Positions 6,419 through 60,655 of a stretch of 64,000 bases of DNA are shown here, one piece after another (position 1 is the first letter of the stretch; each line of letters starts with the position of its first letter). Location: assembly GCA_018664485.1 (NCBI GenBank), contig JABJOE010000009.1, positions 4,108 to 68,107 on the forward strand, given 5' to 3'. Source of the stretch: Candidatus Uhrbacteria bacterium. GTDB lineage: Bacteria; Patescibacteriota; Patescibacteriia; UBA9934. Made by a program: the position numbers and the translations under genes. The notes beneath the pieces are model-generated. The model did no database searches and was not told the origin of the DNA. It worked only from the letters and a program-made list of their open reading frames with translations.

Positions 6419-6658
6419 GAAGGGGCAAGGATAGCTTAAATTATTCTTTTTGTCAATTATTATTAGTAAATAGAGATCATTTTTGGGCAATAAATATCAA
6501 TCCTGCAGGTCTTTTTGCAATAATTACCCATATTCGTATAGATACTGAAGCCACCACAACATCGGTACTTTTAATTGATTTCGGAATATAAAGTGCGTTT
6601 AGGATTAATTTATGTATGGTTACTTTTTTGTTTTAAAAGAAAGAAGTAAAATGTATGT

Positions 6659-31002: not shown

Positions 31003-31404
31003 ATGAATGATTTCGGCAAAAACAAATGGCAAAAGTGGAAACGCCCAAAAAAAGCTAATCGACCGTTTAAAAAACGACCGGATAGCATCAACTTTTTGGT
31101 TGGTGGAGCTTTGAAGCGGCATGGAATAGGGCCTCAGGTTCAAGCTGCGATGATTGTAAAGCGTGCAAACGAGGTCTTAGACAGAATTATCGAAGAACGA
31201 TTTCGATCCGATGTTCGCGTAATATCGTTTCAGCGCACCGAACTTCACGTTGCCTGCCGTCACGCACCAGCACGCCACGTAATCGACAGCGTAAGGGTGC
31301 AAATTAGCGAGGAGATGACAGTTCATTTTCCATCAATTACAATCAATAGAATCTTCTGCAAGGTAGACCCACACATGCTCGACAGCAAAAGTGAAATTTC
31401 ATAA
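31003..31404 (+). CDS. DUF721-like protein (DciA-like fold?)
   Basis: Start ATG 1 nt after the helicase stop. Pattern VKRANEVLDRII...RVISFQRTELHVACRHAPARHVI resembles DUF721. Confidence 0.45.
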   Translation: MNDFGKNKWQKWKRPKKANRPFKKRPDSINFLVGGALKRHGIGPQVQAAMIVKRANEVLDRIIEERFRSDVRVISFQRTELHVACRHAPARHVIDSVRVQISEEMTVHFPSITINRIFCKVDPHMLDSKSEIS

Positions 31405-43155: not shown

Positions 43156-44040
43156 ATGAAACGACGTAATTTCCTCAAAAAGCACCATGCACGCCGATAC
43201 ACATCGGACCGTTTTCGCAATCCATATTTTTCAGGTAAAAAAATAGTTCCGTGGACAAAACGCGTACTTCGTTTACTTGTCGTGCTCGCCGTTATAATCG
43301 GAATTCCTTGGCTTACCGTGATATTGCCATGGTTCTATATTGACTCCGTAGCAGTTGAAGGGTCTATAACATTGCAGCCAAATCAAATTGAATCGTTTGC
43401 GTGGGATCATCTCAACGAAAAGAGATGGGACGTTGTGCCACAACATCATATCTGGCTTCTCAACGAAGACGCACTTCGCAACGATATACTTAGCCAATTT
43501 GCATTAGATGACGCTACAGTCACGCGTGACGGCCGGTCCTTAAGCATTGTGGTAAACGAGCGTATTACTTCTCTTATTTGGGCACATGGGGAAGAACTCT
43601 ATTTCGTTGATCAAAGTGGGTTTATAGTCCGTGCGCTTAACGAAGAAGAAATTAACGATGTACGAGCACTGCTTTATGGCGAAGGTGAGCGGATAAACAT
43701 CATTCAGACGGATGAAATCTTCGTGGTCTTTGAGCAGGGTGGGGAAGTAGTGTCGCAAAACCAACAAGTACTCACAGAGAACGCTGTTGAAGTACTTTCT
43801 GTGGTGAATCAAGACATTGGTAACTATTTAATTACAATTGAAAGTATCAGTATCGATACAGCTTTGACCGACTGGGTAGCGCTTAACACACGTGGTGGTC
43901 CAGATATTTACGTAGACTTAAATGGTGACGGTAATGATCAGCTACATAACCTGGAGGTCATCTTGGACGAATATAAAAGCAACCTAGAGGGAATTGAGTA
44001 CATCGATCTGCGCTTTGGGAACCGTGTTTTTGTTAAATAG
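43156..44040 (+). CDS. FtsQ/DivIB-like cell-division protein (cytoplasmic basic N-terminus, single TM, POTRA-like region)
   Basis: Topology, and the POTRA-like pattern SIVVNERITSLIWAHGEELYFVDQSGFIV. Confidence 0.5.
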   Translation: MKRRNFLKKHHARRYTSDRFRNPYFSGKKIVPWTKRVLRLLVVLAVIIGIPWLTVILPWFYIDSVAVEGSITLQPNQIESFAWDHLNEKRWDVVPQHHIWLLNEDALRNDILSQFALDDATVTRDGRSLSIVVNERITSLIWAHGEELYFVDQSGFIVRALNEEEINDVRALLYGEGERINIIQTDEIFVVFEQGGEVVSQNQQVLTENAVEVLSVVNQDIGNYLITIESISIDTALTDWVALNTRGGPDIYVDLNGDGNDQLHNLEVILDEYKSNLEGIEYIDLRFGNRVFVK

Positions 44041-44404
44041 AATAGGTAGGTATATATAGTTATTATTTGAATATCTAAGTGTCGTACAATATATCTTATA
44101 CGACACCACAGTATATTTCACCATGAGGGGTAGGTCATCTACAACCTTTAAACAGTCGAATACTTGGCTAAAGTTAGTCAAAAAAAGACCCTTATAGGAT
44201 CTGCTAACTCCTTATAATAGTTTTTAAAAGTTGTCATGAGCCTAGCTGTATCTGTACCTATATATGAGCCTGCGCCTATCCATCTATATCTCTCTGCAAC
44301 CACGCAGATCTCCGCCCCTTCTCTTTCACACCCCCTCTCACACATGTGTCGTAAAACGAAAAAGATCCAACCCACCTTCTAGCGATCAGATCTCTTAATT
44401 ACTT

Positions 44405-45583
44405 TTACTGAAGATATAGAAGCGGATCAACAGGAATACCGTTCTTACGGAGCTCCATATGAAGATGTGGACCCGTTGATAACCCCGTATTACCCGAATA
44501 CCCTATTATCTGTCCACGTGAGACAAACTGGTCGGTTGTAACGTTAATGCTTGAGAGATGGGCGTACAGCGTTGCGTAACCGTCAGCATGGATCACCATC
44601 ACATAGTTACCATAAGACCGTCCGGTACGCGCCCAGGCAACATAACCAGGTGCAGCTGACTCAATCGGAGTACCTGAAGGAACTGCAATGTCCAAACCGC
44701 CGTGTTCAAACAGGTGACGGAATGGATACGATGGGTCGTGGAAGATTGCAGTGATAATTCCATTCACTGGCCAGGTGAAAATAGTAGCGTCTCCAAGCTC
44801 ATCCAAGCTTGAGATCTTCCCTTCCAAGTCAGTATGCAACTGAGCTAACTGAGAACTGATATAAGCCTGCTCCTGACGAAGTTCGCTCATTAGCACCCGA
44901 TACTGTGACTCAGAAGCCTCAGTACTCGCAATTAGCACCTCTTTAGCCTCAGCGCTATGTTCAAGTTGAATCAACTGCATTTCCATTTCATCTTGTAGTA
45001 CAAGCAGCTCATCTAGGTTTTCTTCTTGATCAAGCTTATTGTCGGAAAGTCGTTGCTTAGTAGCGTGGGTTTCACCGAGCGTTGTGTTCATCTCGGCGTT
45101 AACACTCTCCAAACGTTCTACAACGGAAAACAACTCGTTGAAATCCTCAGAGCCGAACAAGACTTCGATGAAACCGATTCCGTCGTTTTTGTTTAGCTCA
45201 AAGATCATCTCCTCTAAAATCTCGCGCTGGTACGCAACATTCGCCTCCTGTTCCCGTATAGCTTCTTCTAAAATCGCTATTTCTAATTGCTTTGTTTCTG
45301 CCTGAGCTTCCGTTGACTGAATGTCTAAATCAAGAAGAGCTGTTTCGTTCTCGATTAGTGCAATGTCGGCAGACAATGATGCAGACTGATTGGAATAGTA
45401 ATTAATCTTATCCCGAATTTCATCAATCTTACTATTTATTGCATCCACCTGAGCTTCACGTGCATCGATCTCACCCTGCAACTCATTTACATCGCTTAAT
45501 GCAGCATCTTCTGCAATTACAAAACCTGAGAATGTAAATATTCCCACAAATGCAATTAGCGTTAAGTAAAATCCCCTCTTCAC
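44405..45583 (-). CDS. M23/LytM-family metallopeptidase with a long N-terminal coiled coil (EnvC-like)
   Basis: Signal/TM N-terminus, heptad-rich region. C-terminal HxxxD...GNTGxSTGPHLH M23 motifs. Confidence 0.8.
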   Translation of the reverse strand: MKRGFYLTLIAFVGIFTFSGFVIAEDAALSDVNELQGEIDAREAQVDAINSKIDEIRDKINYYSNQSASLSADIALIENETALLDLDIQSTEAQAETKQLEIAILEEAIREQEANVAYQREILEEMIFELNKNDGIGFIEVLFGSEDFNELFSVVERLESVNAEMNTTLGETHATKQRLSDNKLDQEENLDELLVLQDEMEMQLIQLEHSAEAKEVLIASTEASESQYRVLMSELRQEQAYISSQLAQLHTDLEGKISSLDELGDATIFTWPVNGIITAIFHDPSYPFRHLFEHGGLDIAVPSGTPIESAAPGYVAWARTGRSYGNYVMVIHADGYATLYAHLSSINVTTDQFVSRGQIIGYSGNTGLSTGPHLHMELRKNGIPVDPLLYLQ

Positions 45584-45623
45584 TCAATCAGTATACCAAA
45601 CTTAAAGTTAGACGTCAGGACTA

Positions 45624-45839
45624 TTGCAATTAGCCTTTTTATATGATAAAAACTCTGCGAATTCCAACTACGGAGACATCTTGGAACTCATCACGTACAC
45701 TGATTCACATGTCCAATTCTGGACGCTGATAGTGCTTGCGGCCTTCTTTATCCTCGGGCTCACAGCCTTTGGTGCACTATGGCCTGACATTGTCAGAGGA
45801 TTCAACGAGCGAAACCGCTCGCCCACCAACCCCGAGTAA
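45624..45839 (+). CDS. hypothetical small membrane protein (in a G+C-enriched islet)
   Basis: 71-aa ORF with one TM helix. Weak. Confidence 0.3.
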   Translation: MQLAFLYDKNSANSNYGDILELITYTDSHVQFWTLIVLAAFFILGLTAFGALWPDIVRGFNERNRSPTNPE

Positions 45840-45841
45840 CG

Positions 45842-46084
45842 ATGACCGTACTGATTGTGAAAGTTTGTATCGGGCTCGCCGTACTTCTCGCCATCGCTCT
45901 TGTGACCGGTGTGGCAGACATACCTTTCGAGTACTATGACAGATGGATGGAAGAGCGAAAAAAGGAAAAGCCTGCGGTCAAGCGAGCGCCCGGCACATTC
46001 CTACCGCTGTTGCTGGTAATTGGTACCGGCGCAACCCTGTTCTTCATCTGCTTGCTCCTGATGAGCTCTCTCTCCACCCCTTGA
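45842..46084 (+). CDS. hypothetical small membrane protein (2 TM; G+C-enriched islet)
   Basis: 80-aa ORF starting 2 nt after the previous stop. A hairpin plus T-run terminator lies at about 46205-46245. Confidence 0.35.
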   Translation: MTVLIVKVCIGLAVLLAIALVTGVADIPFEYYDRWMEERKKEKPAVKRAPGTFLPLLLVIGTGATLFFICLLLMSSLSTP

Positions 46085-46239
46085 GGATGATGATCCCAGA
46101 CCCACTACTTCTACTTGTCACTATTTGGCTCGCAACCGAACTAGCGGCGGTAATCCAGAATAGTGCCCTCCGGTAAAACAACCTACAAGCGTACAACCAT
46201 GTACCGTCAGCGCCACCGCGGCCCTGGCGGTGTTGATTT

Positions 46240-47703
46240 TTATAAAACCGCTATCGCCTGATCTATTCTCTTTAAAGACTCTTCACGACCGAGTACCCAT
46301 AAAAACTCAAATGGACTCGCCGACTTTTGCAAACCAGAAAGTGCAATGCGCAACGGCCACAAAACATTACCGTTTGAAAGTTCATTCTTCTCAATATACG
46401 CCTTAATTCGATCTTCAACGTAAGATAGATTTTCATAAATATCATCCGGAGCGCCAGCGATCTCCGCGCGCACACCCTCAAGCTGCACCTTGGCATCAGC
46501 GGCGTCGGACTTCTTCCATGTAATTGTCTCAGCGTCCGGAGCGTCATAACCGGTGTACGGAACGATGGCCTCTGCAAACTCAGTTAGTCGGTGAATACGT
46601 TCACGCTCAACAAACAAAGCCCGCATGATCATAGGATCGTCAACATCAACCTCTACGAATGGTCGCGCAGCCTCAGCGACCTCGTCCAATCCAAGCTCCT
46701 TCAAATACTGCTGATTCATCCAATCCAACTTTTCAATATTCATCACAGCCCCACTCTTTTTAACCTTTGACAGATCAAACATATCGATGAGTTCTTGCAA
46801 TGTGTACACTTCCCTGTCGCCAGTCGGATTAAACCCGAGAGTTCCAACAAAGTTAATTAGTGCAGCCGGCAGATAACCTTTTTCTAGATAATCCTCAACA
46901 GCAACATCACCCTGACGTTTTGAAAGTTTTGTTTTGTCAGCATTCAAGAGCAAAGGAACGTGTGCAAAGGTTGGCACATCAAATCCAAGCATATTCATCA
47001 AAATCACATGTTTCGGCGTAGACGGAATCCACTCCTCACCGCGAAGCACATGCGAGATTGCCATCAAATTATCATCAACCACTACAGCCATGTGATAAGT
47101 AGGAAATCCGTCAGACTTCATCAAAACCTGATCATCAAGATCACTATTATTCACACTCACAGTTCCACGGACAACATCCTCAAATACTGTCTGCCCTTCC
47201 GGAACCTTCATTCGGATCACATGAGCCTCACCGTCAGCCAAACGCTTCGTAACCTCATCCTGCCCAAGCGCCAAGCAAGCACGATCGTACTTCGGTGTTT
47301 GTTTCGTTGCTCGCTGCTCTTCACGCATCTCAGTCAACCGTTCCCGACTACAAAAACACGGATACGCATCACCCTGACCTAAAAGAGTCTCTACATAAGG
47401 TCGATAAATATCTAAACGCTCCGACTGAATATAAGGCCCGACATCACCCTTTTGCGTAAGCGAACCATCATCCTGCAAAAACGGTCCTTCATCGTGGAGA
47501 ATTCCGAGTTTTGAAAATGTTGCAAGAAGGCTCTCTGTTGCACCTTCAACCAATCGCTCCTGATCTGTGTCTTCGATTCGAATAATGAACTTCCCACCAG
47601 TCTGCTTGGACAAAAAATAATCGAACAAAGATGTACGAAGTGTTCCAATGTGCATGTAACCAGTTGGGCTTGGTGCGATGCGTGTTCGGGCAGGTGTAGT
47701 CAT
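46240..47703 (-). CDS. gltX: glutamyl-tRNA synthetase
   Basis: PSPTGYMHIG (HIGH) and KLSKR motifs. Confidence 0.9.
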   Translation of the reverse strand: MTTPARTRIAPSPTGYMHIGTLRTSLFDYFLSKQTGGKFIIRIEDTDQERLVEGATESLLATFSKLGILHDEGPFLQDDGSLTQKGDVGPYIQSERLDIYRPYVETLLGQGDAYPCFCSRERLTEMREEQRATKQTPKYDRACLALGQDEVTKRLADGEAHVIRMKVPEGQTVFEDVVRGTVSVNNSDLDDQVLMKSDGFPTYHMAVVVDDNLMAISHVLRGEEWIPSTPKHVILMNMLGFDVPTFAHVPLLLNADKTKLSKRQGDVAVEDYLEKGYLPAALINFVGTLGFNPTGDREVYTLQELIDMFDLSKVKKSGAVMNIEKLDWMNQQYLKELGLDEVAEAARPFVEVDVDDPMIMRALFVERERIHRLTEFAEAIVPYTGYDAPDAETITWKKSDAADAKVQLEGVRAEIAGAPDDIYENLSYVEDRIKAYIEKNELSNGNVLWPLRIALSGLQKSASPFEFLWVLGREESLKRIDQAIAVL

Positions 47704-47706
47704 ATT

Positions 47707-48522
47707 CTATTTATTGATCAACTGACGAATTACTTCTGGAAAAACATTTTTTATTGCTTTTTTGAGTCTCTTTCCCCGATACGCCGTGACCGCTACAACC
47801 ACCGGAAAGATAATGCTTGCACGGATGATCCTACCAGCTCTGCGTGGTTCAATCAACATGCGCCAAATGAACTCTAACCCCACTTTACGCATCCACTTAG
47901 GGCCACGTATCTTCTTACCGGAGATCATTTCAAATGCACCTCCAACACCTATTGCAATCTTTACAGTTGAAAATTGTGACAGGTACCGCTCTATAAATGC
48001 ATCCTGTTTTCGCTGACCAAAAGCTACAGCGATAACGTCTGGTTCAAGGCGTTCAATCACAGTTTCGATTGCCCTTTCGATTGTTACACGTCCATTTTCA
48101 AACTCAACCTTACCTGGATCGATTCCGTGAACGTCCAAACCCTCATACTTGCCGGCCAACTTTTTAGCGGCGACATCTGCTGACCCTGGATCTCCACCGA
48201 GTAGAAGAAGTCGTTTACCATTCTCTTTACACAGTCTCGCAAGCAACTCAACGCTATCAACACCCGTGTGGCGATGTGCAAGATGTCCATCCGTTAAAGC
48301 CGCCGTTGCATAACGTAATCCAACTCCATCAGGCAATGAAAGATCCGCTCCGTTTATTCTTCCTCGAAAAACCGAATCGTTCATCGACAATAGAAGCATC
48401 TCCGGATTTGGAGTGACAACAATTTTACTCTTTCCTGTCTCAAGCCAATCTGAAAATGTTTCCACCAATTCTGTGGTGGCAAGATCATCAATACGAACAT
48501 TTAGAATTGAGTGACTTTGCAT
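47707..48522 (-). CDS. WecB/TagA/CpsF-family glycosyltransferase
   Basis: VVTPNPEM...DGVGL family signature. Confidence 0.8.
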   Translation of the reverse strand: MQSHSILNVRIDDLATTELVETFSDWLETGKSKIVVTPNPEMLLLSMNDSVFRGRINGADLSLPDGVGLRYATAALTDGHLAHRHTGVDSVELLARLCKENGKRLLLLGGDPGSADVAAKKLAGKYEGLDVHGIDPGKVEFENGRVTIERAIETVIERLEPDVIAVAFGQRKQDAFIERYLSQFSTVKIAIGVGGAFEMISGKKIRGPKWMRKVGLEFIWRMLIEPRRAGRIIRASIIFPVVVAVTAYRGKRLKKAIKNVFPEVIRQLINK

Positions 48523-48936
48523 CTACTTTTTACGCCAAATAAATATTGCAGCAGCAGCACCTACAAGATCGTTTACAAAATCCATCATAGTGTCTGGAAG
48601 ATCTGGCTGTCGAAGGGCGTCTGATGGCAAAACGAGATCAAGCAACCATTCATGAAGTTCCCAAACGATTCCAATTAATGAAACGAACCCGAGCACCATC
48701 GCGGGAACTAGCCACCACTTCAAATGTCGCTCAAGGGCACCTTTGAAAGTAACGTCTTCTATCCCCTCATGCCATATAGCGAGTGCCAAGGCACCCATAG
48801 CAAACCCCCCACCTACATGCATCGGAATGTCATACCAACTAATCAGATCGTATAGTCCAAAAAACAGACCAACAGCATGAGCTAGCAGAACAATTCCTAT
48901 AATTAACCAGGCTTTTTTCATTGTCATATGGCTCAA
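48523..48936 (-). CDS. hypothetical membrane protein (4 TM)
   Basis: Hydrophobic profile. Start of the membrane-protein / tagA / gltX operon. Confidence 0.45.
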   Translation of the reverse strand: MSHMTMKKAWLIIGIVLLAHAVGLFFGLYDLISWYDIPMHVGGGFAMGALALAIWHEGIEDVTFKGALERHLKWWLVPAMVLGFVSLIGIVWELHEWLLDLVLPSDALRQPDLPDTMMDFVNDLVGAAAAIFIWRKK

Positions 48937-49015
48937 GTCTACGTCAAAATACCAGCACTTACAATCCTTGTTTACTCTCCAATACTTGACAATTGCGCTA
49001 ATTTATGATAAAAAG

Positions 49016-49528
49016 ATGCGCACCCCAGGAGACAAAATGACCCCGACCTTACCACAAGTGTTCACCGGGATTGGATTCGCCCTTTTGCTGATGGGATGTT
49101 TCGGCATCATCGCCACCATCCTGATTGACGGGATCTTTCTGGTACCTGAGCGGAATAAGATCCTCAGCAGAGTGCGCCGACAAGTAATCGAATCGTCGAA
49201 AGCAAGCGACATGAGCTACGCTATATCAAGACTGCAAGCAGCTCTTGGTTGGATGTCTGACAATGACTTCGATGAGGCGTTCCCCGGCTACTACAGACAT
49301 CTGAAGAAGTGTCACGACTACCTCTCTCCGCGTATCAAGGACGTACCCATCAAGCAGAAGGTCCACCTGATGCACAACCAGCGAGAGCTTGAAAACAACT
49401 GCAACTGGGTGGTGCCGCAGAAGATGTACACCCATCGCGTGAAGTACGCGGACATCCTACACAGTATCGTTTTCTGGTCATCGCTTATCGTGTCCGCGCT
49501 TGGTCTTTTCGTTCTGATCGTGACCTGA
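49016..49528 (+). CDS. hypothetical membrane protein, tandem paralog 1 (MRTPGD... family)
   Basis: Start at the conserved ATGCGCACCCCAGGAGA. N-terminal TM and a C-terminal TM. Own TTGACA promoter at 48986. Confidence 0.5.
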   Translation: MRTPGDKMTPTLPQVFTGIGFALLLMGCFGIIATILIDGIFLVPERNKILSRVRRQVIESSKASDMSYAISRLQAALGWMSDNDFDEAFPGYYRHLKKCHDYLSPRIKDVPIKQKVHLMHNQRELENNCNWVVPQKMYTHRVKYADILHSIVFWSSLIVSALGLFVLIVT

Positions 49529-49660
49529 CCCTCTGAGCACAATGTATCTGCTCCTCGCCCTCCTCTCGCCTCGTCGAGCTGGAGGGTTGACTGCATCATA
49601 TTTTAATCGATTATTTAACGCATCCATTGCTTGACAATTCAGCTAATGAGTGCTAAAAAG

Positions 49661-50176
49661 ATGCGCACCCCAGGAGATATCATCACCCACGACGCAGAAC
49701 TTCTTTTGCTTACCGGAACCATCCTCAGCCTCATTGGAGTAATCGCATTCTTGATCTGCATCATTTTGCACATCTTGTATCTTGATCCCGAACTCAAGCT
49801 TATTGACAGAGAGGTCCTTAAGCCGATCCAGGAAGCGGCTGATGCGAGTGACATCCGCTTTGCCATTGAAAGCCTCGATGCAGTACGTGAGTGGATGACG
49901 CTCAACGGGTTCAGCGAGAGTTTTGGAGGCCTCTTCAAGCACCTTAATGGTCGGAGAGACTTCCTTGCCCATAAGACGATGGCTCAACCGCTTTATCCAC
50001 TCAAGATTCTGGCTGTCAACAAAAGCTCAATCGAGAGCCACATGAACTGGCTGCTCGTTGTAAGAATCTCTCTACATCGCGTGCGTGTACCTGGCTTCAT
50101 CTGCCTATTCAATTTGATCATACTTGGCCTCACTACGTTCCCAGGCATCTTCTTCATTGTTGAAGCCTTGCGATAA
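49661..50176 (+). CDS. hypothetical membrane protein, tandem paralog 2 (MRTPGD... family)
   Basis: Same conserved start context, promoter (TTGACA 49631-49636) and 3' hairpin (ccctcc..ctcgcctcgtcgagctggaggg) as paralog 1. Confidence 0.5.
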   Translation: MRTPGDIITHDAELLLLTGTILSLIGVIAFLICIILHILYLDPELKLIDREVLKPIQEAADASDIRFAIESLDAVREWMTLNGFSESFGGLFKHLNGRRDFLAHKTMAQPLYPLKILAVNKSSIESHMNWLLVVRISLHRVRVPGFICLFNLIILGLTTFPGIFFIVEALR

Positions 50177-55375: not shown

Positions 55376-56725
55376 ATGAAACCTCTACTTATAGCTTTAT
55401 TATTCCTTTTGCCAGTCCCCGCCCTGGCTTTCAACCCAGATTACCTTATTTCCGATTGGGAATTGGAAGATCCTTTCGCATTGGACTTCAATCAAATCCA
55501 ACATTACCTCAATCGAGGTTATTTGGGGGACTACAAAACTACAGACTGGGAAGGCGACGTCGCATACGCTACCGACATCGTATGGACGGCAGCACAAACC
55601 TATTCGTTGAACCCAAAATTTATCCTCGTACTTCTTCAAAAGGAACAGAGCCTGGTTGAAGACGACGACCCAACTCAGAACCAACTAGACTGGGCTACAG
55701 GGTACGCCGTGTGTGACAGCTGCAGTAAAGATGACCCGGCAATCCAGAGATGGAAGGGATTTGGAAAACAAGTGAACTCTGCCTCCGCACAATTCCGCGA
55801 AGGATATCTTGCCGACATTGAAAACGTAGGATCAACCCAAGGTAAATACGGACCAGACATCGAAGTAGAGATCGATGGAACTACAGTCACGCCATCGAAT
55901 GCCGCAACGGCAGCACTCTACGCATATACCCCTCACCTGCACGGAAACGAAAACTTTGTAAAAATCTGGGACCGCTGGTTCTCACAACAGTACCCAAGTG
56001 GAAGTCTCCTCCAAGGTGATGGCGAAAGCGGCGTGTACTACATCGAGTTTGGCTACAAGCGAGCAATACATAGCTGGAGCGCTTTGCAGTCTCGATTCGA
56101 CGCAGACCTTATCATCACAGTGAACCCAAACATCCTTGAAAACTATCCAGACGGTGCCCCGATTGATTTCCCGAACTATTCCCTTCTCCAAGATGAGGAC
56201 GGAACAATCTACCTTCTTGTAGACGACACTCTTCGGCCAGTCGATAGCTTGGACACATTCCACTCATTCGGATTCGTTGAGGATGAACTTACTGATATTG
56301 ATAACGACGACCTTGTTTATTTCGAGATTGGTGAAACGATTACTGAAGCTTCAAAGAGTCCTGAAGGTGAAATCCTACAGCTCTCAACAAACGGTGCCCT
56401 GTTTTTCATCCAAGACGGACAAAGACATATCCTACTTGATGAAGCGTTGATTGATATGCGATTCTCAGGAACAAGCGTTCGTGAAGTATTACCAATGGAA
56501 GTTGAGCAATATACTGAAGGTGACGCAGTTATCATTCCTGAAGGTCATCTTGTAAAGTCCATCGAGGATCCAACTGTATACGTGATTTCTGAAACAGAAC
56601 GACTTCCGATTGGTTCTGAATCAGCTTTCACTACCTATGGTTGGTCATGGGATGATATCGAAACTGTAAACGCATCATTACTCAAACAGCATCGAATTGG
56701 TGATGCTATCGAAGTCTCAGAATAG
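55376..56725 (+). CDS. hypothetical secreted protein (signal peptide; acidic)
   Basis: MKPLLIALLFLLPVPALA signal peptide. 449 aa. No recognised motif. Confidence 0.5.
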   Translation: MKPLLIALLFLLPVPALAFNPDYLISDWELEDPFALDFNQIQHYLNRGYLGDYKTTDWEGDVAYATDIVWTAAQTYSLNPKFILVLLQKEQSLVEDDDPTQNQLDWATGYAVCDSCSKDDPAIQRWKGFGKQVNSASAQFREGYLADIENVGSTQGKYGPDIEVEIDGTTVTPSNAATAALYAYTPHLHGNENFVKIWDRWFSQQYPSGSLLQGDGESGVYYIEFGYKRAIHSWSALQSRFDADLIITVNPNILENYPDGAPIDFPNYSLLQDEDGTIYLLVDDTLRPVDSLDTFHSFGFVEDELTDIDNDDLVYFEIGETITEASKSPEGEILQLSTNGALFFIQDGQRHILLDEALIDMRFSGTSVREVLPMEVEQYTEGDAVIIPEGHLVKSIEDPTVYVISETERLPIGSESAFTTYGWSWDDIETVNASLLKQHRIGDAIEVSE

Positions 56726-56739
56726 ATCAGACATTACTT

Positions 56740-57531
56740 ATGCTTGTCTTCTCAGCCCTTGTACCAAATTCCCCTCTCCTGCTGCCATCAATCAGCAAGG
56801 AAGGTTCAGCGACCACTGCAAAAACCGGTGAAGCACTGGATACTCTCGCAGATGAACTCTATGCAACGCATCCGGAGGTTATCGTTCTTATAAGCGAACA
56901 TCCAACAATCTACAAAAACTCTTTTTCTATCAACGTTGCTGACCCTTATACATTTAATCTAAATGAATTTGGGAACCTAGGTTTTGAGATGAAGCTACAT
57001 CCAAACATTGAATTGATCGATCGACTGCAAAGATCTCTACGTGGTAGCGACTTCTCATTCACACTTACTACTGACGAATCGCTCAACTACGCAGCTGCAG
57101 TCCCACTTCAGCGACTTACAAAGAACCTTCCAAACGTTCAACTGGTTCCAATATGTTTCAGTGAACTTGAAGCTAAAGACCACTTTCAATTTGGTCAGGC
57201 AATCAAGGACTCGATAATGAATAGTTCAAAACGTATTGCTGTGATCGCAGCTGGAGATATGTCGCATGCACTTTCGTCAGATGCGCCTGCCGGGCTCACA
57301 AAAGAAGGTGAGCAATTTGACGCAACGGTACAGGAACTACTTTCTCAAAAAAATACATCAGGGCTCATTAGCCTATCACCCGAACTCGTCGCAAAAGCGC
57401 ACGAACGTTCATACCGACCACTCCTGATATTGATGGGAATGCTCGATAGAATTTCATACACGCCGGACATCCTAAGCTACGAATCGCCAGTCGGAGTCGG
57501 ATATTTAACAGCAGAATTCAGACTAACTTAA
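56740..57531 (+). CDS. LigB/Memo-like (class III extradiol dioxygenase fold / AmmeMemoRadiSam protein B-like) protein
   Basis: Pattern VIVLISEHPT ... RIAVIAAGDMSHAL ... resembles LigB-family metal-site segments. Tentative. Confidence 0.35.
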   Translation: MLVFSALVPNSPLLLPSISKEGSATTAKTGEALDTLADELYATHPEVIVLISEHPTIYKNSFSINVADPYTFNLNEFGNLGFEMKLHPNIELIDRLQRSLRGSDFSFTLTTDESLNYAAAVPLQRLTKNLPNVQLVPICFSELEAKDHFQFGQAIKDSIMNSSKRIAVIAAGDMSHALSSDAPAGLTKEGEQFDATVQELLSQKNTSGLISLSPELVAKAHERSYRPLLILMGMLDRISYTPDILSYESPVGVGYLTAEFRLT

Positions 57532-57549: not shown

Positions 57550-59295
57550 ATGTTTGCAGAGGTTTATCCCGTAACAAGAATGCCACGTAGGTTTGGTGTT
57601 TTTGATTATACTTGTGACGCCAGCGTTCAAGCTGGTGATTTGGTTTGGATACCCCTCCGCGGACGTAGTGTACTTGGAGTCGTGCGCGTTGTAAAATCAA
57701 CCGCTGGAACCACAAAACGACTGTCGGCCATTGAACGCGTAATGCTGAACAAGTTTTTTACACCTGACGATATCACTCGAATAGAATCCATCGCCACAGA
57801 CATAGTTCAGTCTCCGTCAACACTGTTTTTCCAGGCCCTAATGGGTATAAGTAAGGAACCATCGAAGTACATTACTCCAACGACAACACAGAAAGCATCT
57901 ATCTCAAAAGACATCGTTGAACAAATCAAAACATTCACAGAAGAGAAAGCTTCTTTTATACAAGGTTCAATTGAAACATGTATAGCCCTCGCTTATCAGT
58001 ACGCATCCAAATTAGATGGGCAGATGATCATAGTTGCTCCGCATGAAAAGGATGCTCACTCTATAGCGTCGCTTCTGCCAAAGAATAAACGAGTTGCAAC
58101 ATTGCACGGAAAGATCCCGCATAATCAAAGATCCTCAATTATTCGCTCATGGAGAAATGGAGAGATAGATATTCTAGTTGGAACAAAGCAAGCGACACTT
58201 TTGCCGGCCAATAATCTATCTGTCGGAATTCTGTACAACCCAACACACCATGACCACGTATCATACGATCGTAACCCTCGTTTTGATGCAAAAGTAGCCC
58301 TGACACTTCTCTGCGTGCAACATAAAGCCGAACAGATCTCCTGCGGGCCAACACCACAGATACAAATCGAACCAACACCGGCGGTATACGCAAAGACAGA
58401 TATCAAAGTAATCGATTTATCAGCACAGGATGAAAAAACAGGTATTCCCTTTTTGTCAGAGACATTAAAGCAAGCAATAGACGGCGCACACAACGACAAC
58501 AAGCAAGCTATCGTTTTATATAACCGCAAAGGTTACGCCGCCAGACTCCGATGTAAAGATTGTGGTCATGTTCCATTTTGTGGGTCTTGTGGTGGGATTC
58601 CAAAAATGCGCAAAGACGATCTTGCATGCCCCGTTTGCCACACCGAAATGTGGATTCCAGAGAAGTGCCCGTCTTGCAATGGTGCGAATCTAAAACCTCG
58701 TGGAATCGGAAACAATCGACTTCGCGAAAAATGGCAAGAAGCATTCCCCGGCAAAACAATTGCTACGGTCGACAAAAAGGATCATGCAATTCTTAATGCT
58801 GATATCTTACTTGTTACAGAATATTTCTTCTCGACCATTCACAGTGCTTTTATGCGTTATAATGTTGGAGTTGTAGCAGACGCTTGCTCCGACCTTCACA
58901 TGGACAATACTGCAGATGCCGGCTTGCAAATGGCGTCTCGAATTCACCGGCTCTCCATGTTCGCCAAAATGCAAAAAGTAAATCCTATAGTTCAAACATG
59001 GACTCCGACACTCATCAAGCCAATGGTCAACCTTCAGCGCTTCTACACACAAGAAAGGGATACAAGGCAGACATACAACCTACCCCCCTTCAAAAAACAC
59101 ATCAAAATAACCTGCAAAAAGGAAATTCCGGAAGAATTAGTAGCCCTTCGAACATACGCAGAAGCTGATGAAGAAATCGATCTTTATGAAATCAACAGTG
59201 GCCTCGAGCTCTTGACATCGGTGGAAAAATACGGCAAACTACTACCTTACTTGCAACAACTGCCAGACCATTGCATACTTCAAATTACATTATGA
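57550..59295 (+). CDS. priA: primosomal protein N' (PriA) homolog with a conserved 3'-DNA-binding N-domain and Cys4-Cys4 zinc region but degenerate Walker A/B
   Basis: N-terminal FAEVYPVTRMPRRFGVFDY...GDLVWIPLRGRSVLGVV. CKDCGHVPFCGSCGG...CPVCH...CPSC zinc module. Walker A position reads QGSIETC and Walker B reads NPTHHD. Confidence 0.65.
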   Translation: MFAEVYPVTRMPRRFGVFDYTCDASVQAGDLVWIPLRGRSVLGVVRVVKSTAGTTKRLSAIERVMLNKFFTPDDITRIESIATDIVQSPSTLFFQALMGISKEPSKYITPTTTQKASISKDIVEQIKTFTEEKASFIQGSIETCIALAYQYASKLDGQMIIVAPHEKDAHSIASLLPKNKRVATLHGKIPHNQRSSIIRSWRNGEIDILVGTKQATLLPANNLSVGILYNPTHHDHVSYDRNPRFDAKVALTLLCVQHKAEQISCGPTPQIQIEPTPAVYAKTDIKVIDLSAQDEKTGIPFLSETLKQAIDGAHNDNKQAIVLYNRKGYAARLRCKDCGHVPFCGSCGGIPKMRKDDLACPVCHTEMWIPEKCPSCNGANLKPRGIGNNRLREKWQEAFPGKTIATVDKKDHAILNADILLVTEYFFSTIHSAFMRYNVGVVADACSDLHMDNTADAGLQMASRIHRLSMFAKMQKVNPIVQTWTPTLIKPMVNLQRFYTQERDTRQTYNLPPFKKHIKITCKKEIPEELVALRTYAEADEEIDLYEINSGLELLTSVEKYGKLLPYLQQLPDHCILQITL

Positions 59296-59777
59296 GCAGC
59301 CTTCCATTAGTACAAGTCCCTGCAGATTCACTGCGAACAAAATCACGCGAAATCACGCGTGAGGAATTGACGTCTGCAAAAATCCAGACCCTGATTGATG
59401 ATATGGCTGAAACTATGGATGTCGAGGGTGGAGTTGGACTTGCAGCGCCACAGATCGGTGAGCATCTACGAATAATTGTTGTGGCTCGAAAGACAGGTAC
59501 CGAGGCATATATCAATCCTGAAATCACACAGCGATCTTTACGTAAGATGAAAAGTGAAGAAGCTTGCCTTTCGATTCCAGGAGTTGTCGGGATTGTTCAG
59601 CGACACAAAGTGGTCAGCATAAAGGCGCTCGACAGAAACGGAGCCGAAGTGCTAATTCCAGACCTCGGCGGATTTATGTCTGTCGTTTTCCAACACGAGA
59701 TTGATCACTTGGACGGAATACTTTTCATTGATCGAGCGAAAAAGATTTCTCACGCAAAAGGTGACGTACTCGTATGA
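59292..59777 (+). CDS. def: peptide deformylase
   Basis: GVGLAAPQIG, EACLSIPG and QHEIDHLDG motifs. ATG overlaps the priA stop (ATGA). Confidence 0.85.
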   Translation: MSSLPLVQVPADSLRTKSREITREELTSAKIQTLIDDMAETMDVEGGVGLAAPQIGEHLRIIVVARKTGTEAYINPEITQRSLRKMKSEEACLSIPGVVGIVQRHKVVSIKALDRNGAEVLIPDLGGFMSVVFQHEIDHLDGILFIDRAKKISHAKGDVLV

Positions 59778-60655
59778 AGATAGCATTTTTCGGTACTCCA
59801 GAATTTTCAGTTCCATTTCTTACGGCCCTCGATAACGACGAGGATCTTATTGTATCTACGGTCATTTGCCAGCCAGACAAACCCGTTGGACGAAAGAAAG
59901 TTCTTACAGCTCCAGCTACAAAACAATACGCGCTTGAACACAATATAAAAGTTTTGCAGCCAGCAAGCTTGAAGAAAGATCCAATTGAACTGGATGCCGA
60001 TCTGTTTATTGTGGTCGCTTACGGAAAAATCATTCCACAAAATATTCTAGACATTCCAAAGCACGGGACTGTTAACGTTCATCCATCTCTATTACCAAAG
60101 TACCGAGGGCCATCACCAATGCAGGCCGCAATTGCTAACCTCGATCGTGAAACCGGGGTAAGTATTATGCTACTGGATGCAAAGATGGATCATGGACCAC
60201 TGCTAGCGCAAGAAACGATCAAGCTCGATGGCACTGAGACATATCCTGATTTACAGCATAAAGTTCATGCCCTTGCACCAGGGTTACTCGTTGATACAGT
60301 TAAAGCGCATACCTCAGGGTCGATCACCCCGAAAGAGCAAGATCATGATGCAGCGACAATCTGTAAATTATTGAGTCGCGATGACGGAAAGGTTGACTGG
60401 AACGATTCTGCAGAAGTGATTGATGCCAAGCGCCGCGCGTACACACCATGGCCAGGCGTATCAATGACATGGGACGAAAAAACTTTCAAAATTCACAACA
60501 CATCTATTTCTGATAAAAAACTTCCGGTCGGTGGACACTTGACTGAAGAAAATCGATTGTTTTTTGGTACTTCAACAACAGCTTTAGAGATTTTAGAAAT
60601 TCAACCAGAAGGAAAACAACGGATGAAAACAGAAGATTTTTTGCGAGGAAAATAG
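59774..60655 (+). CDS. fmt: methionyl-tRNA formyltransferase
   Basis: N-terminal formyltransferase fold with HPSLLP(K)YRG motif. Overlaps the def stop. Confidence 0.9.
   Translation: MKIAFFGTPEFSVPFLTALDNDEDLIVSTVICQPDKPVGRKKVLTAPATKQYALEHNIKVLQPASLKKDPIELDADLFIVVAYGKIIPQNILDIPKHGTVNVHPSLLPKYRGPSPMQAAIANLDRETGVSIMLLDAKMDHGPLLAQETIKLDGTETYPDLQHKVHALAPGLLVDTVKAHTSGSITPKEQDHDAATICKLLSRDDGKVDWNDSAEVIDAKRRAYTPWPGVSMTWDEKTFKIHNTSISDKKLPVGGHLTEENRLFFGTSTTALEILEIQPEGKQRMKTEDFLRGK

What the first reader, a model, noticed from the sequence alone, without database searches (positions are those of the whole stretch)
57550..59295. PriA homolog retaining DNA-binding and zinc modules but with naturally inactivated helicase motifs
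The protein has a canonical PriA 3'-DNA-binding N-domain and the Cys4/Cys4 zinc-binding insertion (CKDCGH..CGSCGG / CPVCH..CPSC). Its gene sits in the usual priA-def-fmt arrangement. However, at the Walker A position it reads QGSIETC instead of GxTGSGKT, and at Walker B it reads NPTHHD instead of DEEHD. In this homolog the replication-restart factor therefore appears to have lost ATPase/helicase chemistry while keeping fork recognition. This would be a natural counterpart of the helicase-dead priA alleles that still load the replisome. It raises the question of which helicase or loader partners it uses; a DUF721/DciA-like gene lies at 31003.
Basis: partly seen in the sequence, partly recalled or inferred. 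Interest (0 to 1): 0.5.

Follow-up and report, generated by a model that had tools for sequence, protein, structure and literature searches.

The report
Motor-less PriA in Uhrbacteria (CPR)
This gene is the organism's own PriA replication-restart protein, which has kept its DNA-fork-binding and zinc modules but lost every ATP-motor motif; many related candidate-phyla-radiation bacteria share the loss, so it adds a new lineage to the one "pseudohelicase" PriA already shown experimentally, in Deinococcus.

Summary
ORF 57550-59295 (+) encodes 581 aa, from a Candidatus Uhrbacteria (Patescibacteria/CPR) genome. It has a PriA 3'-end-binding domain, a PriA fold (AlphaFold2 pLDDT 93; Foldseek TM 0.70-0.75 to PriA crystal structures) and all eight zinc-ligand cysteines. 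It has no Walker A, Walker B, motif III, V or VI, and no winged-helix domain.

The loss is not an alignment shift or decay:
- It is specific to ATPase positions: 5 of 36 canonical-invariant positions are kept there, against 45 of 96 elsewhere.
- It is shared by at least 150 cluster representatives.
- The gene is an intact ORF in 19 genomes, with dN/dS of about 0.1.
- It sits in the ancestral priA-def-fmt slot, which intact CPR PriAs also occupy.

Related CPR PriAs run from intact through partly degenerate to this fully degenerate clade. One subclade has lost the zinc module too.

A natural PriA pseudohelicase is already known in Deinococcus radiodurans (Lopper 2015), so this is a new lineage of a known kind, not a new principle.

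The ORF at 31003-31404 is supported as DciA by fold. The likely mechanism is an ATP-independent fork-recognition scaffold for DnaB reloading. That mechanism is inferred, not shown. Absence of a second priA could not be checked genome-wide.

The parts
57550..59295 (+). priA-like gene (581 aa + TGA): orthologous PriA that has become a pseudohelicase
   Evidence: ORF; PriA relatives only; PriA fold. An AAGGGGG Shine-Dalgarno lies upstream of the ATG. The conserved N-terminus MxAEVYPxxRLPRRF supports the start at 57550; NCBI's call is 10 aa shorter.
57550..57849 (+). 3'-DNA-binding domain (aa 1-100), with the 3'-end pocket residues F18-D19-Y20 (nt 57601-57609) = E. coli F16-D17-Y18
   Evidence: Pfam PF17764, 26.7 bits, matched in 58/59 clade members. 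F/D/Y are kept in 126/131/142 of 150 sequences. The role of D17/Y18 is from PMC5778457 and PMC5175346.
57850..57906 (+). Short linker (aa 101-119) in place of the winged-helix domain of E. coli PriA (residues ~109-181)
   Evidence: ~80-column gap against WH-containing PriAs. One of the best structural matches is the WH-deletion E. coli PriA, 6dcr. Intact short CPR PriAs also lack WH.
57907..58419 (+). RecA-like lobe 1 (aa 120-290) without ATP-site residues
   Evidence: AF2 secondary structure and pLDDT >90; no PF00270/PF04851 hit.
57961..57984 (+). Walker A (motif I) remnant QGSIETCI (aa 138-145), aligned to E. coli G224-T231; K230->C144, T231->I145
   Evidence: In the model the strand at 136-138 is followed by only two residues before the helix at 141-153, so no P-loop remains.
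58234..58254 (+). Walker B (motif II) remnant YNPTHHD (aa 229-235), aligned to E. coli DEEHD
58258..58293 (+). Retained aromatic-rich loop region (aa 237-248, ..RNPRFDAK): R244 = E. coli R334, F245 = Y335, K248 = R338
   Evidence: R241/N242/P243 are invariant or nearly so. P243 is kept in 149/150, R244 in 133/150 and Y/F245 in 122/150. Canonical Firmicute/CPR PriAs read NPRY(H/N)AR here. The ARL contacts fork DNA in E. coli (PMC5175346).
58420..58983 (+). RecA-like lobe 2 (aa 291-478) carrying the CRR insertion. Motif V remnant LVTEYFFST (aa 421-429, nt 58810-58836); motif VI remnant RLSMFAKM (aa 467-474, nt 58948-58971), with both arginine fingers lost (R584->F471, R587->M474)
58546..58683 (+). 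Cysteine-rich region (aa 333-378): four CxxC pairs, Cys335/338/344/347/360/363/373/376 = E. coli Cys436/439/445/448/463/466/476/479
   Evidence: All 8 Cys are invariant in 59 relatives and aligned to the E. coli zinc ligands. Pfam Zn_ribbon_PriA is not matched.
58984..59292 (+). C-terminal domain (aa 479-581), shortened; conserved blocks QTW..P and Y.LPPF
   Evidence: Aligned to canonical iQT..P / YPPF. Q482 and P513 are invariant; R506, Y509 and P512 are >=90% conserved. 6/9 canonical-invariant CTD positions are kept.
56740..57531 (+). Upstream LigB/Memo-family gene, conserved neighbour in the clade
   Evidence: Pfam; synteny.
59292..59777 (+). def (peptide deformylase). Its ATG at 59292 overlaps the priA-like TGA (ATGA), suggesting translational coupling; the mechanical ORF starts at TTG 59271
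   Evidence: Pfam 156.7 bits; sequence.
59774..60655 (+). fmt (methionyl-tRNA formyltransferase), 4-nt overlap with def
   Evidence: Pfam; coordinates.
31003..31404 (+). Probable DciA (DnaB loader/operator), 133 aa, starting 2 nt after a UvrD-like helicase-nuclease gene. Candidate partner, not part of the priA operon
   Evidence: Pfam DciA 17.4 bits, below the cut-off of 24. AF2 pLDDT 78 with alpha-alpha-beta-beta-alpha-beta topology. Best PDB fold hits are V. cholerae DciA in complex with DnaB (8a3v, E 1.9e-6, TM 0.60, rmsd 2.5 A) and the D. radiodurans DciA DUF721 domain (7ykm).

Best explanation
The gene is the Uhrbacterial ortholog of priA. In this CPR lineage it has evolved into a pseudohelicase. 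It keeps the PriA scaffold: the 3'-end-binding domain with its FDY pocket, two RecA-like lobes, the DNA-contacting aromatic-rich loop, a two-zinc cysteine-rich region and a trimmed C-terminal domain. It has no P-loop, no Walker B acidic pair and no arginine fingers, so it cannot bind or hydrolyse ATP in the canonical site and cannot translocate or unwind. It most likely still recognises abandoned forks and D-loops through the nascent leading-strand 3' end, and acts as an ATP-independent landing pad that recruits the replicative helicase DnaB. Recruitment could be direct, as reported for D. radiodurans PriA, and/or go through the DciA loader encoded at 31003 and through SSB. Any lagging-strand clearing would be left to other helicases or to SSB. 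Shown here: homology, fold, motif loss, clade-wide conservation, purifying selection, positional orthology and the presence of a DciA-fold gene. Inferred: lack of ATPase activity, fork binding, a role in restart and the partners.
For: PriA identity:
- Only PriA families and structures match.
- AF2 pLDDT 93.2, pTM 0.92.
- Foldseek TM 0.70-0.75, E ~1e-33 to PriA 4nl4/8fak/6dcr; the next best hits are at E ~1e-9.

Motif loss:
-.
- Specific to ATPase positions: 5/36 kept against 45/96 elsewhere, p = 5e-4.

Not decay:
- 18 invariant columns, including 8 Cys, across 59 sequences with a mean column identity of 36%.
- 19 genomic copies are intact ORFs; pN 0.18-0.37 against saturated pS; dN/dS 0.08-0.14 where computable.
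- At least 150 cluster representatives with E < 1e-99; 147/151 sequences (these plus the query) lack all catalytic residues tested.

Ortholog, not paralog:
- The order ClpB - unknown - LigB/Memo - priA* - def - fmt is conserved in genomes at 31-37% identity.
- Intact CPR PriAs (P0127, P0128) and a Firmicute priA sit in the same priA-(def)-fmt slot.
- The NJ tree nests the clade inside CPR PriAs, with intermediates.

Not a sequencing or recoding artefact:
- An intact DEAD-box helicase (5141-6490) and a UvrD-like helicase with GAGTGKT lie in the same window.

Precedent for function without a motor:
- E. coli priA300 (K230R) supports restart (PMC5778457).
- D. radiodurans PriA lacks ATPase and helicase activity but binds forks and DnaB (PMC4504706).

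DciA fold.
Against: - There is no biochemical or genetic evidence for this protein or any clade member.
- A second intact priA in the same genome is excluded only for the 64-kb window and the +-5-8 kb flanks of 20-odd related loci. The 986-kb contig of the same organism could not be read.
- K61 of the E. coli 3'-end pocket is Ser in this protein (Lys in only 85/150 of the clade), and G37 has no aligned equivalent, so 3'-end recognition may be altered.
- Pfam Zn_ribbon_PriA and PriA_C do not match, so the partner surfaces have diverged.
- In E. coli the helicase-dead allele needs PriB and DnaT, which are not known in CPR.
- No DnaB, SSB or primase gene is adjacent, so there is no contextual link to them.
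Confidence: 0.7

Rival explanations
1. Neofunctionalised PriA descendant. The scaffold is kept for DNA-structure binding, but the protein no longer serves replication restart. It could be a fork or D-loop sensor in recombination or repair, or a structural DNA-binding factor, and the lineage-specific conserved motifs would form new partner surfaces.
For: Clade-specific, strongly conserved blocks replace the helicase motifs: VTEYFF for motif V, QSPS, and E/D-H after motif II. Pfam PriA_C and Zn_ribbon_PriA models no longer match. A subclade has even lost the CRR. The NCBIfam priA score is far below cut-off, 133 against 230.
Against: The 3'-end pocket FDY, the ARL, the CRR and the overall PriA architecture are precisely the restart-relevant, non-catalytic parts, and they are what is preserved. 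The gene stays in the ancestral priA slot. The known pseudohelicase PriA of Deinococcus keeps fork and DnaB binding (PMC4504706).
Confidence: 0.15
2. Specialised or redundant copy. The genome also encodes an intact PriA elsewhere, and this gene is an accessory, helicase-dead paralog.
For: This could not be excluded genome-wide. Only 64 kb of a genome of roughly 1 Mb (986-kb contig) was visible.
Against: The gene occupies the ancestral priA-def-fmt position. No canonical PriA named as Uhrbacteria appeared among the hits to the query or to the CPR intermediate. CPR genomes are small and rarely keep paralogs of replication genes (general knowledge). The clade shows purifying selection, not decay.
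Confidence: 0.07
3. Non-canonical ATPase. The protein still binds or hydrolyses nucleotide with residues outside the classical motifs, or at the proposed second weak nucleotide site of PriA.
For: [quoted passage not shown] T423 (motif V Thr) and a conserved D/E-H after motif II persist.
Against: No P-loop remains: the strand-to-helix connection is only two residues. There is no Lys/Thr, no Asp-Glu and no arginine finger in 147/151 sequences. Positions under the former motifs are variable within the clade, which is not expected for a catalytic site.
Confidence: 0.04
4. Decaying pseudogene, or misalignment with intact motifs at shifted positions.
For: The low NCBIfam score, and annotation as 'hypothetical protein' in the NCBI record.
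Against: The ORF is intact in 19 genomes with dN/dS ~0.1. The model has pLDDT 93. Three independent alignments (HMMER, two MAFFT runs) and the structure agree on motif positions. The only GKT (aa 401-403) is in lobe 2 and is not conserved.
Confidence: 0.02

Closest known systems
Deinococcus radiodurans PriA pseudohelicase (Deinococcus-Thermus PriAs; Lopper, Boone & Morrow 2015, PMC4504706)
   Same: It is a natural PriA ortholog with non-consensus Walker A/B. It was experimentally shown to lack ATPase and helicase activity yet to bind ssDNA, forks and DnaB. The host also has a DciA-type loader (D. radiodurans DciA structure 7ykm, seen).
   Different: In Deinococcus-Thermus the motifs are still recognisable (e.g. 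GKT -> GRT, per the paper). Here all of motifs I, Ia, II, III, V and VI are erased and the P-loop is structurally gone. This protein lacks the WH domain and, at 581 aa, is 151 aa shorter than the 732-aa E. coli PriA. The rough tree nests the clade inside CPR PriAs, so the loss looks independent. No Deinococcus sequence was available for a direct test of this.
E. coli PriA K230R/A/D (priA300) helicase-dead alleles
   Same: They lose ATPase, helicase and translocase activity while retaining primosome assembly and near-wild-type growth (PMC5778457).
   Different: They are laboratory point mutants in an otherwise intact 732-aa PriA that works with PriB and DnaT. The Uhrbacterial protein is a natural, clade-wide, multi-motif loss in a lineage where PriB, DnaT and PriC are not known.
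Canonical PriA (TIGR00595 / PRK05580; structures 4nl4, 6dgd, 8fak)
   Same: 3'BD, two RecA-like lobes, an aromatic-rich loop, a CxxC x4 zinc region inserted in lobe 2, a CTD and priA-def-fmt synteny.
   Different: No ATPase motifs, no WH domain and a truncated CTD tail. The score is below the equivalog cut-off, 133 against 230 bits.
Other degenerate PriAs seen here: short CPR PriAs (e.g. Candidatus Buchananbacteria P0126, Portnoybacteria P0185, P0063 group) and a Nitrospirales PriA (P0065)
   Same: They have degenerate motifs I, II and VI with PriA architecture.
   Different: The CPR intermediates retain parts of the motifs (DEEN, GTQM). P0065 keeps the WH domain and is 771 aa. None of these has been characterised, and no paper on them was found.

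Membership tests
PriA (replication restart protein / primosomal protein N') | N-terminal 3'-DNA-binding domain with the 3'-end pocket (E. coli D17, Y18) | tested here: met
   PF17764 26.7 bits, above the cut-off of 22.7. F18-D19-Y20 align with F16-D17-Y18 and are kept in 126-142 of 150 clade sequences. K61 is not kept in this protein (Ser59).
PriA (replication restart protein / primosomal protein N') | PriA-type overall fold: two RecA-like lobes, a CRR inserted in lobe 2, and a CTD packed on the 3'BD | tested here: met
   AF2 pLDDT 93.2. Foldseek TM 0.70-0.75, E ~1e-33, to PriA structures only; the next family is at E ~1e-9.
PriA (replication restart protein / primosomal protein N') | Cysteine-rich region CxxC-Xn-CxxC-Xn-CxxC-Xn-CxxC coordinating two zinc ions | tested here: met
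   Eight Cys align to E. coli C436-C479 and are invariant in 59 relatives. Zinc binding itself is not testable here, and Pfam PF18319 is not matched.
PriA (replication restart protein / primosomal protein N') | SF2 helicase motifs I (GxTGSGKT), II (DEEH) and VI (QxxGRxGR) giving DNA-dependent ATPase and 3'-5' helicase activity | tested here: not met
   The motifs read QGSIETCI, YNPT(HHD) and RLSMFAKM. No K/T, D/E or R fingers. No PF00270/PF04851 hit.
PriA (replication restart protein / primosomal protein N') | Score above the NCBIfam equivalog cut-off (TIGR00595, 230.35 bits) | tested here: not met
   133.3 bits.
PriA (replication restart protein / primosomal protein N') | Winged-helix DNA-binding domain between the 3'BD and lobe 1 (E. 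coli residues ~109-181) | tested here: not met
   Replaced by a ~19-aa linker. Intact short CPR-type PriAs also lack it, so it is not universal to the family.
PriA (replication restart protein / primosomal protein N') | Orthologous genomic position (priA-def-fmt) | tested here: met
   The window, clade members, intact CPR PriAs and a Firmicute.
PriA pseudohelicase (as defined for D. radiodurans PriA) | Clear descent from PriA with catalytic residues of Walker A/B replaced | tested here: met
PriA pseudohelicase (as defined for D. radiodurans PriA) | No ATP hydrolysis and no duplex unwinding | not testable with these tools
   Inferred from the absence of the P-loop, the acidic pair and the arginine fingers. 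Needs purified protein.
PriA pseudohelicase (as defined for D. radiodurans PriA) | Retained ssDNA and fork binding, and physical interaction with the cognate DnaB | not testable with these tools
   Only indirect: the 3'BD pocket and the ARL are retained. dnaB is not in the window.
PriA pseudohelicase (as defined for D. radiodurans PriA) | Common descent with the Deinococcus-Thermus clade (same loss event) | not tested
   No Deinococcus sequence could be fetched. The NJ tree nests the clade among CPR PriAs with graded intermediates, which suggests an independent loss.
DciA (DUF721) - for ORF 31003-31404 | Pfam PF05258 above the gathering score | tested here: not met
   17.4 bits against 24. Only 1 of 8 homologs has a precomputed PF05258 hit.
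DciA (DUF721) - for ORF 31003-31404 | KH-like alpha-alpha-beta-beta-alpha-beta DUF721 fold resembling DnaA domain I | tested here: met
   AF2 topology. The top PDB hits are VcDciA in complex with DnaB (8a3v, E 1.9e-6, TM 0.60), DrDciA (7ykm) and DnaA domain I (4tps).

The most novel reading that the evidence does not exclude
A large part of the Candidate Phyla Radiation (the Uhrbacteria clade plus graded intermediates in other CPR groups such as Buchananbacteria and Portnoybacteria) runs replication restart with a PriA that has been stripped stepwise to a motor-less scaffold: first the ATPase motifs, then in one subclade the zinc module. This would define a minimal, ATP-independent PriA-DciA-DnaB restart pathway. 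It would show that PriA's conserved core function is structure-specific recruitment, not unwinding.
Probability: 0.3. Interest if true: 0.6.

Novelty: new member of a known kind. Interest (0 to 1): 0.42.

Why it matters
[quoted passage not shown] This finding shows the exception is not unique. A whole CPR clade of at least 150 sequence clusters has erased every ATPase motif under purifying selection, related CPR lineages show intermediate states, and a Nitrospirales PriA has done the same. That supports the idea, long suggested by E. coli priA300, that PriA's essential job is fork recognition and helicase recruitment, not unwinding. It also offers a naturally minimal PriA (581 aa, no WH domain, no motor) for asking how PriA hands DnaB to a DciA-type loader, which is an open question (PMC9825169). 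On the practical side, these genes are inconsistently annotated as 'hypothetical', 'helicase-related' or 'primosomal protein N'', and they fall below the NCBIfam PriA cut-off.

Tried and rejected
- The search for related loci with the 59-sequence alignment failed because no stretch was conserved enough. It was repeated with 19 closer sequences.
- The short intact PriAs P0067 and P0075, first taken as possible CPR references, turned out to lie in non-CPR-looking contexts (chemotaxis, Mla, gmk-priA), so they were not used for synteny. P0127 and P0128 were used instead.
- P0094, first used as an 'E. coli-like' reference, is not E. coli. Residue numbering was redone with the K-12 sequence from NC_000913.
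- A regex search for GKT/DExH anywhere in the proteins gave scattered chance hits, for example LHGKT in lobe 1. It was replaced by position-aware scoring.
- dN/dS could not be estimated properly because synonymous sites are saturated. Only pN << pS and two finite ratios are reported.
- Literature searches for PriA in CPR/Patescibacteria, and for motif-less PriA in mycobacteria, gave nothing relevant. My recollection that actinobacterial PriAs are flagged in UniProt as lacking helicase domains could not be verified here and is not used as evidence.
- The afdb50 fold library was unavailable.
- A whole-genome check for a second priA was not possible.
- No tRNA or Rfam feature is present in the window.
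Full report
**1. What is at the coordinates**

The ORF at 57550..59295 (+) exists exactly as reported and encodes 581 aa. An AAGGGGG Shine-Dalgarno precedes the ATG. The TGA stop overlaps an ATG of the next gene (ATGA at 59292-59295).

Pfam gives PriA_3primeBD (aa 16-96, 26.7 bits, above the cut-off) and a Helicase_C-like hit on aa 152-215. It gives no DEAD/ResIII domain. NCBIfam's best model is priA TIGR00595, but at 133 bits against a cut-off of 230. The only significant PDB sequence matches are E. coli and K. pneumoniae PriA (E ~1e-19), and that alignment places NPTHHD against DEEHD.

The neighbours are a LigB/Memo-family gene (56740-57531), def and fmt. An identical protein is deposited as 'hypothetical protein HON52_04215 [Candidatus Uhrbacteria bacterium]'. 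Its start is called 10 codons too late, judged by the conserved N-terminus.

**2.

I aligned the protein with 62 relatives and 9 canonical PriAs. I then repeated this with the genuine E. coli K-12 PriA taken from NC_000913. The results are in the table.

| Feature | Canonical PriA | This protein |
|---|---|---|
| Walker A (motif I) | GVTGSGKT | QGSIETCI (K230->C144, T231->I145) |
| Motif Ia | PEIALT | PHEKDA |
| Walker B (motif II) | DEEH | YNPT (the HMMER register is one off: NPTH; acidic residues are absent either way) |
| Motif III | SAT | GPT |
| Motif V | GTQMxAKG | VTEYFFST |
| Motif VI | QVAGRAGR | RLSMFAKM (both arginine fingers lost) |
| Winged-helix domain | ~80 aa | 19-aa linker |
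| CTD tail | full length | shortened |

The only GKT in the protein (aa 401-403) sits in lobe 2 after the invariant F399-P400 and is not conserved in relatives. It is not a displaced Walker A.

The loss is specific to the motor. Among positions invariant in 10 canonical PriAs, 5 of 36 inside ATPase motifs are kept, and these are structural Pro, Thr and Leu residues. Outside the motifs 45 of 96 are kept: 3'BD 7/10, CRR 12/14, CTD 6/9 (Fisher p = 5e-4).

Other helicases in the same window have normal motifs. These are a DEAD-box protein at 5141-6490 and a UvrD-like protein with GAGTGKT at 28068-31001. Sequencing or recoding artefacts are therefore excluded.

**3. What is kept**

- The 3'-end pocket F18-D19-Y20 corresponds to E. 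coli F16-D17-Y18. D17 and Y18 contact the nascent leading-strand 3' end (PMC5778457, PMC5175346).
- The aromatic-rich loop region RNPRFDAK is kept (R334->R244, Y335->F245, R338->K248). P243, R244 and Y/F245 are kept in 149, 133 and 122 of 150 clade sequences. Canonical Firmicute and CPR PriAs read NPRY(H/N)AR here.
- All eight zinc-ligand cysteines are kept.
- The PriA-specific blocks NRKG, GIGN, FP, QTW and Y.LPPF are kept.

AlphaFold2 with the family alignment gives a very confident model (pLDDT 93.2, pTM 0.92). It has both RecA-like lobes, but only two residues lie between strand 136-138 and helix 141-153, so no P-loop remains. Foldseek against the PDB returns PriA structures alone at the top (4nl4, 8fak, 6dcr, 6dgd, 4nl8; TM 0.66-0.75, E 1e-27 to 1e-33). 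The WH-deletion E. coli PriA is among the best. The next hits (DbpA, Mfd, RecQ) are at E ~1e-9.

**4. A clade-wide, selected state of the orthologous gene**

- The word-indexed search found about 62 relatives of 509-641 aa, named Uhrbacteria or Patescibacteria where a name is given. None has a PF00270 hit.
- The exhaustive profile search found at least 150 cluster representatives (50% identity level) with E < 1e-99.
- Scored at the aligned E. coli positions, 147 of 151 sequences (these representatives plus the query) lack K230/T231, D320/E321 and R584/R587 equivalents. The other four keep one remnant each. All eight Cys are kept in 125, seven keep four, and 17 (483-564 aa) have lost the zinc region altogether.
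- In 19 genomic copies the ORF is intact (545-633 aa). Non-synonymous differences (pN 0.18-0.37) are far below the saturated synonymous ones (pS 0.74-0.84). dN/dS is 0.08-0.14 where it can be computed.
- The order ClpB - unknown ~450-aa protein - LigB/Memo - priA-like - def - fmt is conserved in genomes whose protein is only 31-37% identical.
- Intact or near-intact CPR PriAs (P0127, and P0128 from a Parcubacteria 557-kb contig) are also followed directly by def-fmt. A Firmicute priA is followed by fmt. The gene is therefore the positional ortholog of priA, not a stray paralog.
- No second priA-like sequence occurs in the window or in the flanks of the related loci.

**5. Evolutionary picture**

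Short, WH-less PriAs from CPR and relatives form a graded series:

- intact: GxTGSGKT / DEEH / SATPS / GTQM / QVxGRxGR;
- near-intact: GPSGSGKT / DEEQ;
- partly degenerate: the P0063 group with DEENN and GTQM kept, Candidatus Buchananbacteria P0126, and Portnoybacteria P0185;
- fully degenerate: the Uhrbacteria clade.

P0063 shares the unknown - LigB/Memo neighbourhood. A rough neighbour-joining tree places the Uhrbacteria clade, with its CRR-less members, as one group. That group sits at the end of a ladder of degenerate CPR PriAs, next to the near-intact and intact ones. Long-branch attraction cannot be excluded. A Nitrospirales PriA (P0065, 771 aa, WH present) has also lost motifs I, II and VI, so the loss appears to be recurrent.

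**6. Comparison with what is known**

- Lopper et al. showed that Deinococcus-Thermus PriAs have non-consensus Walker A/B. [quoted passage not shown] - I found no paper describing this for CPR.

The present protein is thus another natural PriA pseudohelicase. It differs from the Deinococcus case in four ways. All motifs are erased, not subtly mutated. The P-loop is structurally gone. It lacks the WH domain. Its origin appears to be independent, inside the CPR.

**7. Partners**

It has only a sub-threshold Pfam DciA hit (17.4 bits against 24) and few homologs.

Its model (pLDDT 78) has the alpha-alpha-beta-beta-alpha-beta topology. Its best PDB matches are V. cholerae DciA bound to DnaB (8a3v, E 1.9e-6, TM 0.60, rmsd 2.5 A), the D. 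radiodurans DciA DUF721 domain (7ykm) and DnaA domain I. The organism therefore most likely uses a DciA-type DnaB loader. Whether DciA cooperates with PriA is an open question in the literature (PMC9825169). No dnaB, ssb or dnaG lies in the window.

**8. Mechanism proposed**

Shown:
- a PriA scaffold with a preserved 3'-end pocket, ARL and zinc module;
- no ATP site;
- strong purifying selection;
- the orthologous position.

Inferred:
- the protein binds abandoned forks and D-loops through the nascent leading-strand 3' end and the ARL/CRR surface;
- it cannot translocate;
- it serves as an ATP-independent platform that recruits DnaB, directly and/or through DciA and SSB;
- other helicases or SSB expose the lagging-strand template.

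Rivals are neofunctionalisation away from restart, an undetected intact second PriA, a non-canonical nucleotide site, and decay or misalignment. The last of these is refuted by the data.

**9. Verdict**

The principle is already known from Deinococcus. What is new is the lineage, the extent of the erasure, the graded intermediates and the size of the clade. Interest is moderate.

Noticed in passing
window 28068-31001 (+) and 31003-31404 (+): A 977-aa UvrD/PcrA-type helicase is fused to a C-terminal PD-(D/E)XK nuclease with a Cys cluster (AddA/AddB-like). The probable dciA gene follows it after 2 nt. A repair helicase-nuclease/loader gene pair might be functionally linked.
   Followed up: partly
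window 55376-56725 (+): A 449-aa protein with a signal-peptide-like N-terminus and no Pfam match lies two genes upstream of priA. A 447-474-aa protein with no Pfam hit occupies the same position (before LigB/Memo) in all related genomes examined (L001, L005, L007). It is a conserved unknown.
   Followed up: partly
proteins P0057, P0280, P0291, P0292, P0303, P0307, P0308, P0318, P0319, P0321, P0322, P0329, P0335, P0338, P0349, P0352, P0357: A subclade of the motor-less PriAs (483-564 aa) has also lost all eight zinc-ligand cysteines and the CRR segment. Seven further members keep only four Cys. The scaffold can apparently be reduced further.
   Followed up: partly
protein P0065 (Nitrospirales bacterium, 771 aa): A PriA annotated as 'primosomal protein N'' keeps the winged-helix domain but has degenerate motifs I (DASRSIRE), II (VEQEED) and VI (DAVGLLDE). 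This is apparently another independent pseudohelicase PriA outside CPR and Deinococcus.
   Followed up: partly
proteins P0121-P0124, P0126, P0129, P0132, P0137, P0167, P0173, P0185: Other CPR lineages (e.g. Candidatus Buchananbacteria, Portnoybacteria) carry PriAs with partial motif loss: no Walker A Lys, but DEE(N/Q) and GTQM kept. They are intermediates between intact PriA and the Uhrbacteria state.
   Followed up: partly
window 57550-57579; NCBI protein P0001: The deposited annotation starts the protein at Met11 (571 aa). The family-wide conserved N-terminus MxAEVYPxxRLPRRF and the Shine-Dalgarno upstream of 57550 show that the true start is 10 codons earlier.
   Followed up: yes
loci L009, L012, L015, L023, L024, L025: Several MAG records carrying this Uhrbacteria-type gene and synteny are titled 'uncultured Gammaproteobacteria bacterium'. 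This is almost certainly a taxonomic mislabel in the TPA assemblies.
   Followed up: no
JGI sample 3300072015, 986,404-bp contig: A contig of ~0.99 Mb carries the same gene order as window ~20.8-41 kb, including an identical DciA-candidate protein. It is probably a near-complete genome of the same organism, but its DNA was not retrievable with the tools.
   Followed up: no
window 57550-59295, aa 152-215: The Pfam Helicase_C model, normally a lobe-2 domain, matches lobe 1 of this protein and of 46/59 relatives through the LHG..R..W..G...L(I/V)GT segment. No lobe-2 match remains.
   Followed up: no
window 44000-50000: GC skew turns strongly negative (-0.12 to -0.22) where the genes switch to the minus strand (44405-48522). 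No origin or terminus analysis was attempted.
   Followed up: no
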